A stretch of DNA of 64,000 bases from the human T2T-CHM13v2.0 reference genome, Homo sapiens. The stretch is taken from assembly GCF_009914755.1 (NCBI RefSeq), contig NC_060933.1; one strand, 5' to 3'. A program made the translations under genes and the position numbers. Under the pieces are notes generated by a model. It did no database searches. It was not told the origin of the DNA and saw only the letters and a list, made by a program, of their open reading frames with translations. Below, in pieces: positions 16,728-19,362 of this stretch. Position 1 is the stretch's first letter. The number at the start of each line of letters is the position of its first letter.

Positions 16728-17104
16728 TAAGCTAAGTTCATTCTCTTGTGCAATTTAAGTGAGCCAGGTCCATTCGCTTGTACAATTTTGTCCATCAACA
16801 TTGAACTGCTCAAATGGAGGCACAGGGAAGATAGATGGGAGGGTTATTCCAAGGTTGGGGTTTTGTCAAGTGAGTATGAGTATGATGAACAGAAAATGGG
16901 GAGGAAAGCTGACAGTGTTTGCAAAGGAATGACTGTGTTGAACCTTGAAATCTACCTGGATAAGAAAGAAAGAAAGTAACAAGAAGGTGATGAGGATCAA
17001 TGGATTGATTGGCTGTCTAAAGAACATCAAAGGAACATGCCCGTGGGTTATCTTAGCAAGCAAACTGGAAGGACAGGAGGTCTCAGTAGAAAACAGGATA
17101 TCTG

Positions 17105-17172
17105 GGAAATAAACAGCCATGTTGTTCACACAAAGCCTGTTTGGTGGTCTCTTCACAAGGACGTGCATGAAA
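17105..17172 (+). mobile_element. HERV-H LTR7 R/U5 terminal fragment
   Basis: GAAATAAACAGCCATGTTGTTCACACAAAGCCTGTTTGGTGGTCTCTTCACAAGGACGTGCATGAAA matches the LTR7 3' end; no His-tRNA PBS follows. Confidence 0.88.
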
Positions 17173-17293
17173 GCCTCCAGTGGTATACTGAGTTGGTCAG
17201 GTCCCCCATTTTGTCTGCTTCCAACACCCCCAGTTCTCCTCTTTGGTGATTGAATGGTTCAGGGAAACTGGCCTTTATAAGAATTGAGAATCT

Positions 17294-18757
17294 CTCCCTC
17301 TCCCTCTCCCTCTCCCTCTCCCTGTCCCTCTCCCTCTCCCCACGGTCTCCCTCTCCCTCTCTTGCCACGGTCTCCCTCTGATGCCGAGCCGAAGCTGGAC
17401 TGTACTGCTGCCATCTCGGCTCACTGCAACCTCCCTGCCTGATTCTCCTGCCTCAGCCTGCCGAGTGCCTGCGACTGCAGGCGCGCACCACCACGCCTGA
17501 CTGGTTTTCGTATTTTTTTGATGGAGACGGGGTTTCGCTGTGTTGGCCAGGCTGGTCTCCAGCTCCTAACCGCGAGTGATCCGCCAGCCTCGGCCTCCCG
17601 AGGTGCCGGGATGGCAGACGGAGTCGCGTTCACTCAGTGCTCAATGGTGCCCAGTCTGGAGTGCAGTGGCGTGATCTCGGCTCGCTACAACCTCCACCTC
17701 CCAGCCGCCTGCCTTGGCCCCCCAAAGTGCCGAGATTGCAGCCTCTGCCCGGCCGCCACCCCGTCTGGGAAGTGAGGAGCGTCTCTGCCTGGCCGCCCAT
17801 CTTCTGGGATGTGAGGAGCCTCTCTGCCTGGCTGCCCAGTCTGGAAAGTGAGGAGCGTCTCTGCCCGGCCGCCATCCCATCTAGGAAGTGAGGAGCGTCT
17901 CTACCCGGCCGCCCATCGTCTGAGATGTGGGGAGCGCCTCTGCCCTGCAGCCCCGTCTGGGATGTGAGGAGCGTCTCTGCCCGTCTGAGAAGTGAGGAGC
18001 CCCTCCGCCTGGCAGCCACACCGTCTGAGAAGTGAGGAGCCCCTCCGCCTGGCAGCCACCCCGTCTGGGAAGTGAGAAGCCCCTCTGCCCGGCCAGCCGC
18101 CCCGTCCGGGAAGGAGGTGGGGGGGTCAGCCCCCCACCCGGCCAGCCACCCCGTCCGGGAGGTGAGGGGCGCCTCTGCCTGGCCGCCCCTACTGGGAAGT
18201 GAGGAGCCCCTCTGCCCGGCCAGCCGCCCTGTCCAGGAGGTGTACTCAACAGCTCATTGAGAACAGGCCATGATGACAATGGCGGTTTTGTGGAATAGAA
18301 AGGGGGGAAAGGTGGGGAAAAGACTGAGAAATCGGATGGTTGCCGTGTCTGTGTAGAAAGAGGTAGACATGGGAGACTTTTCATTTTGTTCTGTACTAAG
18401 AAAAATTCTTCTGCCTTGGGATTCTGTTGATCTGTGACCTTACCCCCAACCCTGTGCTCTCTGAAACATGTGCTGTGTCCACTCAGGGTTGAATGGATTA
18501 AGGGTGGTGCAAGATGTGCTTTGTTAAACAGATGCTTGAAGGCAGCATGCTCGTTAAGAGTCATCACCACTCCCTAATCTCAAGTACCCAGGGACACAAA
18601 CACTGCGGAAGGCCGCAGGGTCCTCTGCCTAGGAAAACCAGAGACCTTTGTTCACTTATTTATCTGCTGACCTTCCCTCCACTATTGTCCTGTGACCCTG
18701 CCAAATCCCCCTCTGCGAGAAACACCCAAGAATGATCAATAAAAAAAAAAAAAAAAA
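17294..18757 (+). mobile_element. Full-length SVA (SVA_D-like)
   Basis: (CCCTCT)n ~17294-17360, antisense Alu-like domain, GC-rich VNTR ~17760-18240, SINE-R ~18240-18737, AATAAA plus poly(A); 15-bp TSD AAGAATTGAGAATCT at 17279-17293 and 18758-18772. Confidence 0.97.
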
Positions 18758-18804
18758 AAGAATTGAGAATCTAAATTAATGCAATTTAAACCATTGACTG
18801 TGTA

Positions 18805-19219
18805 TGTGAGAGGAGAGAAAGACCCTCTCACATTGTTTTATATTCAGTAAAAACCACAAGGAAGTAAAACCAAGACAGGCAGCCCAGCGCCAGGCCCGAA
18901 ACCAGGCCTGGGCCTGCCTGGCTTAAACCCAGTAGTTAAAAATCAACTTATGATTTAGAAGCTGATGTTATTCATAGATTCCTTACATTGTATAGAAGAA
19001 CACGGTGAAACTCCCTGCGCTGTTCTGTTCCTCCCTGACCACTGGTGCGTGCAGCCCCTGTCATGTACCCCTTGCCTGCTCACATCAATCACGACCCTTT
19101 CAAGTGAAATCTTTAGTGTTGTGAGCCCTTAAAAGGGCAGAAATTGTGCACTCAGGGAGCTCAGATTTTGAGACAGTAGCTGGCCGATGCTCCCAGCTGA
19201 ATAAAGCCCTTCCTTCTAC
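18805..19219 (+). mobile_element. HERV-E-type LTR (LTR2B/LTR2C-like), U3-R only, cut at its poly(A) site
   Basis: TGTGAGAGGAGAGAAAGACCCTCTCA...GAGCCCTTAAAAGGG...CCCAGCTGAATAAAGCCCTTCCTTCTAC then poly(A); U5 absent. Confidence 0.85.
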
Positions 19220-19362
19220 AAAAAAAGAAAAAGAAAAAAGAAAACAGGATATCTGAAATTAAGACTGCAGATGGAGTAGTTTCTGAAAATGACAGGGTCC
19301 AAGGTGTGACCACGGGACCAAGTGGCTGAACTGGAATGAAGTTAAGAAGCAGTAAGGTAGGT
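19128..19362 (+). promoter_or_regulatory. Candidate LTR2B promoter (CTTAAAA TATA-like box) and downstream splice donor AAG|GTAGGT (19356/19357)
   Basis: Motifs are visible in the sequence; activity is inferred only. Confidence 0.35.

What the first reader, a model, noticed from the sequence alone, without database searches (positions are those of the whole stretch)
17088..19255. Nested-TSD composite retroelement: LTR7 end - SVA - LTR2B U3-R - poly(A), a probable SVA with simultaneous 5' and 3' transduction
Seen in sequence: an inner 15-bp TSD (AAGAATTGAGAATCT, 17279-17293 and 18758-18772) brackets a full SVA. An outer exact 17-bp TSD (AGAAAACAGGATATCTG, 17088-17104 and 19239-19255) brackets 2.1 kb that starts in the R region of a HERV-H LTR7 and ends at the AATAAA and poly(A) of a HERV-E-type LTR2B lacking U5. 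Established: retroviral integration gives complete LTRs with 4-6-bp TSDs, whereas poly(A) plus a long TSD is the signature of L1 target-primed reverse transcription; SVAs are known to carry 5' and 3' transductions. Inference: at a source locus an SVA sat between an LTR7 (promoter) and an LTR2B (terminator). The read-through RNA bypassed the LTR7 and SVA AATAAA signals (17108, 18738) and was retrotransposed as one cassette, with ~190 bp of 5' and ~450 bp of 3' cargo. One extra G at 17105 could be a copied cap (speculative). Alternative: a ~650-bp LTR7-LTR2B retrocopy inserted first and the SVA landed in it later. Either way three retroelement families moved through one RNA route, and the cassette may have siblings.
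Basis: partly seen in the sequence, partly recalled or inferred. Interest (0 to 1): 0.85.

Follow-up and report, generated by a model that had tools for sequence, protein, structure and literature searches.

The report
ERV read-through retrocopy, SVA inserted later
A 0.65-kb L1-made copy of a chromosome 19 RNA that ran from one retroviral LTR into the next landed on chromosome 9, and an SVA element later jumped into it, so this is two ordinary insertions in sequence and not one SVA carrying cargo on both sides.

Summary
Both nested direct repeats are exact and occur only twice in the window. The inner pair brackets a full SVA. The outer pair brackets an insert that begins 2 nt before the AATAAA of an LTR7-type LTR and ends in a poly(A) tail at the poly(A) site of a HERV-E-type LTR lacking U5.

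Searching the window's own genome found one colinear parent, chr19:20298720-20299367. It is the 3' LTR7 of a HERV-H provirus, then 152 bp of host DNA, then a complete HERV-E-type LTR with U5. It holds one copy of the inner target (one mismatch) and no SVA.

Copy and parent differ at 23 of 635 aligned bases, 3.6%. The SVA has 7 private differences in 863 bases. That fits a younger SVA, but only weakly (Fisher p = 0.07).

The likely history is an L1-mediated retrocopy of an unspliced chr19 read-through RNA, followed later by an SVA insertion into it. No sibling copies and no SVA offspring were found. This is a known kind of event and of low interest. Ape orthologues could not be checked.

The parts
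17088..17104 (+). Outer target-site duplication, left copy (17 bp)
   Evidence: Exact; 2 copies in the window, 0 expected. It is preceded by T, giving T|AGAAAA, an L1-endonuclease-like site (read).
17105..17105 (+). One extra G between the TSD and the copied sequence, not templated by the chr19 parent, which has T there
   Evidence: Alignment A1. Cap-derived G, untemplated addition and a later T>G change cannot be told apart.
17106..17172 (+). Last 67 bp of an LTR7-type LTR: part of R with AATAAA at 17108-17113, plus U5
   Evidence: 39 of the 41 matches listed cover only this stretch, at 92-97%. All 18 such loci examined carry LTR sequence further upstream. It is colinear with L002:1502-1568.
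17173..17278 (+). Copied chr19 host DNA lying 3' of the HERV-H provirus (left part of the spacer)
   Evidence: Only chr9 and chr19 match over 104-106 of 106 bases. The other 38 listed matches cover only part of it (40-83 bases) at 79-95%, so it is an old repeat fragment.
17279..17293 (+). Inner target-site duplication, left copy (15 bp); part of the copied spacer
   Evidence: Exact pair. Present once in the chr19 parent, with one mismatch.
17294..18757 (+). Full-length SVA, 1464 bp: hexamer array, Alu-like part, VNTR 17743-18238, SINE-R part, AATAAA 18738-18743, uninterrupted A tail
   Evidence: Sequence and TRF. The SINE-R part matches 39 other genomic copies at 98-99%. Absent from the chr19 parent.
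18758..18772 (+). Inner target-site duplication, right copy
18773..18804 (+). Copied chr19 host DNA (right part of the spacer)
   Evidence: Colinear with the parent. Only chr9 and chr19 cover query positions 1-13.
18805..19221 (+).
   Evidence: 38 other copies at 86-93%. The full family LTR is about 470 bp and includes U5. Homology to the parent stops at CTACAA.
19222..19238 (+). Untemplated poly(A) tail of the retrocopy (17 nt, two G interruptions)
19239..19255 (+). Outer target-site duplication, right copy

Best explanation
There were two successive L1-driven insertions.

Step 1. On chr19 an RNA ran through the end of the 3' LTR7 of a HERV-H provirus, past that LTR's own AATAAA. It crossed 152 bp of host DNA and was cleaved and polyadenylated at the poly(A) site of the next LTR, a HERV-E-type LTR in the same orientation. 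The L1 machinery reverse-transcribed about 0.64 kb of this unspliced RNA into chr9. That produced the poly(A) tail, the loss of U5 and the 17-bp duplication.

Step 2. Later, an SVA RNA was inserted by the same machinery into the copied spacer, producing the 15-bp duplication.

Shown: colinearity with a single SVA-free parent, the exact homology breakpoints, and both TSDs and tails. Inferred: the order in time, the approximate ages, and where the RNA started. The start could lie in the 3' LTR7, or upstream of it with 5' truncation of the copy.
For: (1) There is one colinear parent. chr19:20298720-20298907 matches window 17106-17293 at 95%, and chr19:20298908-20299367 matches 18773-19221 at 95%. 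Every other listed match covers only an LTR part or a fragment of the spacer.

(2) The parent reads full LTR7, spacer with a single AAGAACTGAGAATCT, then a complete second LTR with U5. It has no SVA and no A run at the target.

(3) Homology stops exactly at GAAATAAAC on the left and at CTACAA, 14-16 nt after AATAAA, on the right. There the chr9 copy has an A-rich tail and the parent continues into U5. This is the R/U5 boundary expected for a polyadenylated RNA.

(4) Both target sites look like L1 endonuclease sites, T|AGAAAA and T|AAGAAT (read).

(5) Relative age. Copy and parent differ at 23 of 635 bases, 3.6% (Poisson 95% interval 2.3-5.4%). Over the 484 bp of LTR sequence, 10 changes are chr9-derived, 3 are chr19-derived and 2 are ambiguous. 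The SVA has 7 private differences in 863 bp against its 7-9 nearest copies, and its SINE-R part matches 39 other copies at 98-99%. The SVA tail is uninterrupted A, whereas the outer tail has two G.

(6) The LTR7 is a proviral 3' LTR. The DNA upstream of it matches 39 other copies at 97-98%. A 5-bp duplication, GCCTC, flanks a roughly 6.35-kb element whose 5' LTR is reduced to about 27 + 5 bp, followed by a primer-binding-site-like stretch.
Against: The age contrast is statistically weak. Fisher p = 0.07 for 7/863 against 10/484. It is 0.26 if the 4 differences that the SVA shares with some copies are added, and 0.02 for SINE-R alone. The comparison copies were the best-matching ones, which lowers the private count.

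The split of 10 chr9-derived against 3 chr19-derived changes is not explained.

Precise loss of an SVA from the parent by recombination between its TSDs would leave the same parent sequence, so the parent alone does not exclude the cassette model absolutely.

No ape orthologues could be examined. The order of events is therefore not observed directly.
Confidence: 0.9

Rival explanations
1. An SVA sat between the LTR7 and the second LTR at the source, and one read-through RNA carrying 5' and 3' flanks was retrotransposed as a single cassette. The SVA was afterwards lost precisely from the chr19 source, or the source was an allele that no longer exists.
For: The nested TSDs are compatible with it. 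Both 5' and 3' SVA transductions are common: 1389 5' and 748 3' events among 7554 polymorphic insertions (PMC10681720, passages read). The source does have the predicted full LTR7 and a complete second LTR.
Against: The only parent has a single target copy and no SVA, no A run and no scar. The RNA would have had to read through the SVA's AATAAA and A run. The SVA shows fewer private changes (7/863) than the surrounding cargo shows chr9-derived changes (10/484), whereas this model predicts at least as many. No sibling or second source was found.
Confidence: 0.04
2. A variant of the best explanation that concerns only the RNA's origin. The transcript started at a true cap site inside the 3' LTR7, at or next to G17106, with the extra G at 17105 copied from the cap. 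Under this variant the copy is full-length, not 5'-truncated.
For: There is one untemplated G exactly at the 5' junction. Extra 5' G residues on full-length L1-mediated copies are known (recalled, not checked here). The provirus's 5' LTR now lacks its promoter. LTR7 is a frequent sense-oriented start site for lincRNAs (PMC3580499, passages read).
Against: The TATA box with its adjoining GC-rich box lies at about L002:1432-1449, roughly 64 bp upstream of the first copied base. Initiation is usually expected 25-35 bp after a TATA box (inference). One G can equally be an untemplated addition or a T>G substitution. All 18 other LTR7 loci examined carry LTR sequence upstream of this point, so none is a retrocopy truncated there. 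No expression data are available.
Confidence: 0.2
3. A DNA-level duplication or gene conversion from chr19 to chr9, not an RNA-mediated copy.
For: The two loci are colinear and unspliced.
Against: The copy ends exactly at a poly(A) site, 14-16 nt after AATAAA, with an untemplated A-rich tail. It is flanked by a 17-bp TSD at an L1-endonuclease-like site, and it is only 0.65 kb long.
Confidence: 0.01

Closest known systems
L1-generated processed pseudogenes of endogenous retroviral RNA (HERV-W type; Pavlicek et al. as summarised in PMC5016936)
   Same: The 5' LTR part lacks U3, the 3' LTR part is U3-R without U5, there is a poly(A) tail, the insertion motif is TT/AAAA-like, and a TSD is present (defining list read in PMC5016936; features seen).
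   Different: The two LTR parts belong to two different ERV families, and the RNA is a 0.64-kb read-through from a 3' LTR into a neighbouring LTR, not a proviral genome. The TSD is 17 bp, where that paper quotes 5-15 bp. It is a single copy, not a family. The abstract of PMC5537654 (search listing) calls HERV-W the sole HERV group specifically mobilised by L1.
Ordinary processed retrocopy of an unspliced non-coding Pol II transcript
   Same: One parent, colinear, ends at the parent's poly(A) site, has an A tail and a long TSD.
   Different: The parent RNA consists almost wholly of LTR sequence, and no annotated gene for it was available to me.
Canonical full-length SVA insertion nested in an older element
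   Same: Hexamer, Alu-like part, VNTR, SINE-R part, poly(A) tail and a 15-bp TSD at a T|AAGAAT site.
   Different: Nothing unusual was seen. The subfamily was not assigned because no reference library is held.
SVA with 5' and/or 3' transduction (PMC10681720)
   Same: Non-SVA sequence lies on both sides of the SVA inside an outer TSD.
   Different: The source locus has no SVA, and the SVA has a complete TSD pair of its own inside the flanks. The flanks are therefore the SVA's target, not its cargo.

Membership tests
L1-mediated (TPRT) processed retrocopy | Colinear with a parent locus elsewhere, ending at the parent's polyadenylation site | tested here: met
   chr19 parent at 95% identity. Homology ends at CTACAA, 14-16 nt after AATAAA, and the parent continues into U5.
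L1-mediated (TPRT) processed retrocopy | Untemplated 3' poly(A) tail | tested here: met
   17 nt at 19222-19238, A-rich with two G, absent from the parent.
L1-mediated (TPRT) processed retrocopy | Target-site duplication longer than a retroviral integrase gives, at a TT/AAAA-like nick site | tested here: met
   17-bp exact TSD; 0 of 100 shuffles gave any match. The site is T|AGAAAA.
L1-mediated (TPRT) processed retrocopy | Empty site in an outgroup species | not testable with these tools
   No primate genomes other than the window's own assembly are held.
SVA with 5' and 3' transduction | Source locus carries the SVA between the transduced flanks | tested here: not met
   The only parent (L002:1502-2148) has one target copy and no SVA. 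No other locus holds the spacer at full length.
SVA with 5' and 3' transduction | A single TSD around SVA plus flanks, with no separate TSD directly around the SVA unless inherited from the source | tested here: not met
   An exact 15-bp TSD hugs the SVA, and the source holds that sequence only once.
SVA retrotransposon | Hexamer array, Alu-like part, VNTR, SINE-R part, AATAAA, poly(A) tail and a TSD | tested here: met
   39 other genomic copies match the SINE-R part at 98-99%. The part names are applied from recall of SVA structure.
HERV-H LTR (LTR7) | Belongs to the LTR family that flanks HERV-H internal sequence, with a tRNA-His-type primer binding site after the 5' LTR | tested here: inconclusive
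   The 67-bp piece matches at least 39 other loci at 92-97%. 18 of 18 loci examined carry LTR sequence upstream of the piece, 12 of them the whole ~450-bp LTR in one alignment. The chr19 LTR follows a high-copy internal sequence and closes a provirus with a 5-bp TSD and a primer-binding-site-like stretch. That this site matches tRNA-His, and the name LTR7, are recalled. No Dfam or Repbase comparison was possible.
HERV-E LTR (LTR2B) | Match to the LTR2B consensus; proviral copies with a tRNA-Glu-type primer binding site | tested here: inconclusive
   A family of at least 40 copies of about 470 bp. A chrY pair 8.75 kb apart looks proviral, and a degenerate primer-binding-site-like stretch follows its 5' LTR. 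Its likeness to tRNA-Glu is recalled only. The subfamily (2, 2B or 2C) is not testable here.

The most novel reading that the evidence does not exclude
The extra G and the start 2 nt before AATAAA mark a true capped 5' end. On this reading the 3' LTR7 of a provirus that has lost its 5' LTR promoter fires from a downstream start site, placed so that its own poly(A) signal sits too close to the cap to be used. It then makes a short LTR7-to-HERV-E-LTR non-coding RNA in germ line or early embryo, abundant enough to be captured by L1. That would show HERV-H LTR-driven RNAs, not only HERV-W, entering the L1 retrocopy route.
Probability: 0.15. Interest if true: 0.3.

Novelty: new member of a known kind. 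Interest (0 to 1): 0.15.

Why it matters
It matters little beyond correct annotation. The locus is a clear worked example of how nested TSDs can mimic a double transduction, and of how finding the parent locus settles the question. It records that a HERV-H 3' LTR read-through RNA, ended by a neighbouring HERV-E-type LTR, was present in the germ line or early embryo and was retrocopied by L1. That is a minor addition to a picture in which HERV-W is described as the HERV group mobilised by L1. The copied HERV-E-type LTR fragment overlaps a RefSeq-annotated enhancer (18857-19358, hub annotation), so a retrocopy may have carried LTR regulatory sequence to a new place. That was not tested here.

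Tried and rejected
- **Siblings.** I searched for sibling copies and for offspring of this SVA carrying the right-hand flank. Searches of the whole assembly with the left part, the right part and the spacer alone gave only chr9 and chr19 at full length. The tool scores only the best 40 candidates, but a sibling would outrank LTR-only matches.
- **Second LTR7.** I looked within 10 kb on either side of the chr19 parent. Only a 25-bp remnant lies upstream, so LTR-LTR dating of the provirus is not possible.
- **Spacer as HERV-E internal sequence.** 0 of 4 other family LTR loci share the chr19 flanks.
- **LTR7 start site in print.** The Sjottem 1996 paper is not held. PMC3580499 gives no base-level start.
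- **Not attempted.** SVA subfamily assignment, because no reference is held. Ape orthologues and human polymorphism of the SVA, because no data are held.
- **DNA-level duplication.** Rejected because of the tail and the TSD.
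Full report
**Observation**

The 17-mer AGAAAACAGGATATCTG lies at 17088-17104 and 19239-19255 and nowhere else in the window, even with one mismatch allowed. None of 100 dinucleotide-preserving shuffles gave a match. The 15-mer AAGAATTGAGAATCT lies at 17279-17293 and 18758-18772. None of 100 shuffles reached two matches. The repeat finder returned both pairs independently (families D7 and D8).

Between the inner pair is an SVA of 1464 bp:
- a hexamer array from 17292
- an Alu-like stretch
- a VNTR at 17743-18238
- a SINE-R stretch
- AATAAA at 18738-18743
- an uninterrupted A run to 18757

The part names are applied from recall of SVA structure.

**The parent locus**

The window's own assembly (T2T-CHM13, handle G000) can be searched. 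I used window 17105-17293 as query, which is the left flank of the SVA including one inner repeat. Apart from the window itself there was one full-length match, chr19:20298720-20298907, at 95% over query 2-189. The other 39 listed matches covered only the first 36-75 bases, the LTR7 piece.

With the right flank, 18773-19238, the best non-self match was the directly adjoining chr19:20298908-20299367, at 95% over query 1-449. The other 38 matches began at query position 14 or later, that is, essentially at the LTR. With the spacer alone, 17173-17278, only chr9 and chr19 matched over 104-106 of 106 bases.

There is therefore one parent and no sibling. The tool scores only the best 40 candidates, but a sibling would outrank the LTR-only matches.

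**What the parent looks like**

Read directly and aligned, the chr19 locus is, in order:
- a complete LTR7-type LTR of about 454 bp (L002:1115-1568), with a TATA box and an adjoining GC-rich box at about 1432-1449 and AATAAA at 1504-1509
- 152 bp of other DNA containing a single AAGAACTGAGAATCT
- a complete LTR of about 470 bp of the second family (L002:about 1721-2190), including roughly 42 bp after the poly(A) site that chr9 lacks

There is no SVA and no A run at the target.

Homology with chr9 begins exactly at GAAATAAAC (window 17106) and ends exactly at CTACAA (window 19221). After that point chr9 has AAAAAGAAAAAGAAAAA followed by the outer repeat. The parent and the copy are colinear, so the RNA was not spliced. 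The only length differences are two indels in the right flank, of 10 bp and 1 bp.

**Consequence for the interpretation**

That is what the genome holds. The flanks are the SVA's target, not its cargo.

The outer insertion carries the marks of L1 target-primed reverse transcription. Its end lies 14-16 nt after AATAAA, it has an untemplated A-rich tail, it is flanked by a 17-bp duplication, and the nick site reads T|AGAAAA. The inner one has the same marks, with T|AAGAAT. These are the features listed for L1-processed HERV-W pseudogenes: R-U5 at the 5' end, U3-R at the 3' end, a poly(A) tail, a TT/AAAA motif and a TSD (passages of PMC5016936).

**Relative ages**

Copy and parent differ at 23 of 635 aligned bases, 3.6%. 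The Poisson 95% interval is 2.3-5.4%.

I polarised the 15 differences that fall in the two LTR parts (484 bp), using 18 other LTR7 loci and 4 other loci of the second family. This gave 10 changes derived on chr9, 3 derived on chr19 and 2 ambiguous. The 10:3 split is not explained.

The SVA's SINE-R part matches 39 other genomic copies at 98-99%. Against the 9 best copies (SINE-R) and the 7 of them that cover the whole Alu-like part, the SVA has 2 private differences in 505 bp and 5 in 358 bp. A further 2 and 3 differences are shared with some copies.

The contrasts are as follows:
- 7/863 against 10/484 gives Fisher p = 0.07
- with the shared differences added, p = 0.26
- for SINE-R alone, p = 0.02

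The data thus lean towards a younger SVA, as the sequential model needs, but they do not prove it. Choosing the best-matching copies also lowers the private count. The uninterrupted inner tail against the outer tail with two G points the same way.

Ages can be converted only with recalled ape divergence figures (inference). That places the retrocopy at roughly 10-25 million years and the SVA at several million years.

**Where the RNA came from**

The LTR7 is not a solo promoter LTR. The 461 bp upstream of it match 39 other copies at 97-98%, so it follows the internal sequence of a high-copy element.

About 6.35 kb upstream lies the start of an LTR7 (about 27 bp), joined directly to its last 5 bp and to a primer-binding-site-like stretch. 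The same 5-bp word, GCCTC, flanks both ends of the element. The LTR7 is therefore the 3' LTR of a HERV-H-type provirus whose 5' LTR has since lost almost everything, including the promoter.

The copied RNA either started in the 3' LTR or read through from further upstream and was 5'-truncated during the L1 copying. The first copied base lies about 64 bp after the TATA box. That is further than the usual 25-35 bp (inference), which favours truncation or an alternative start.

The single G at 17105 is not in the parent, which has T there. It could be a copied cap, an untemplated base or a substitution. All 18 other LTR7 loci examined carry LTR sequence upstream of this point (12 the whole LTR in one alignment), so none is a retrocopy starting there. 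I found no base-level start-site data in print.

**Family names**

No Dfam or Repbase library is held, so the names LTR7 and LTR2B rest on recall plus structure.

For the first LTR, the structure fits HERV-H. The title of Sjottem et al. 1996, seen only as a reference entry, describes a GC/GT box immediately 3' of the TATA box of HERV-H LTRs. The chr19 LTR shows that arrangement.

For the second LTR, at least 40 copies exist and the full unit is about 470 bp. A chrY pair 8.75 kb apart looks proviral, with a degenerate primer-binding-site-like stretch after its 5' LTR. The flanks of the chr19 copy are not shared by 4 other loci. Whether the chr19 copy is a solo LTR, and its own TSD, were not resolved.

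**Comparison with known things, and verdict**

The object is an L1-processed retrocopy of an ERV-derived read-through RNA with a later nested SVA. Both events are of well-known kinds.

SVA transductions are indeed frequent (PMC10681720, passages), but this locus fails the defining test: the source holds no SVA. The closest named parallel is the HERV-W processed pseudogene class. One difference is that the two LTR ends here come from different ERV families. Another is that the RNA is a short 3'-LTR read-through, not a proviral genome, and the copy is a singleton.

The abstract of PMC5537654 (search listing) calls HERV-W the sole HERV group specifically mobilised by L1. A one-off HERV-H/HERV-E read-through copy does not contradict that.

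Novelty: a new member of a known kind. Interest is low. What stays open is the direct check in ape genomes, the exact RNA start, and the subfamily names.

Noticed in passing
L027:4131-4185 and L002:1115-1573 (G000 chr19, about 20292430-20298792): A HERV-H-type provirus of about 6.35 kb flanked by a 5-bp duplication, GCCTC. Its 5' LTR is reduced to about 27 bp of its start joined to its last 5 bp, directly followed by a primer-binding-site-like stretch. The 3' LTR is complete.
   Followed up: partly
window 17173-17278: The 'unique' spacer is not fully unique. Its first ~55 bases (33 of the 38 partial matches) or its second half (5 of 38) match loci elsewhere at 79-95%, so the HERV-H provirus on chr19 inserted into an older, unidentified repeat.
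   Followed up: no
window 18857-19358: The RefSeq 'enhancer' feature (hub annotation) covers most of the copied HERV-E-type LTR fragment, the outer tail, the right outer TSD and about 100 bp of chr9 flank. The activity, if real, may come from LTR sequence delivered by the retrocopy.
   Followed up: no
L002:1750-1769 against window 18834-18843: The chr19 parent has a tandem duplication of a 10-bp word (TGTTTTATAT-type) in the second LTR that the chr9 copy lacks. The chrY family copy has the duplicated form, so the chr9 copy probably lost one unit.
   Followed up: no
L002:2191-3188 (chr19, downstream of the second LTR): The sequence after the complete HERV-E-type LTR is not a primer binding site, and by eye it looks like a retroviral pol fragment. 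The LTR may be a solo LTR sitting in yet another ERV remnant.
   Followed up: no
window 17106-19221: Of the polarised differences between copy and parent, 10 are derived on chr9 and 3 on chr19. This is unexplained; chance, reverse-transcription errors, or gene conversion of the chr19 LTRs are possible.
   Followed up: no
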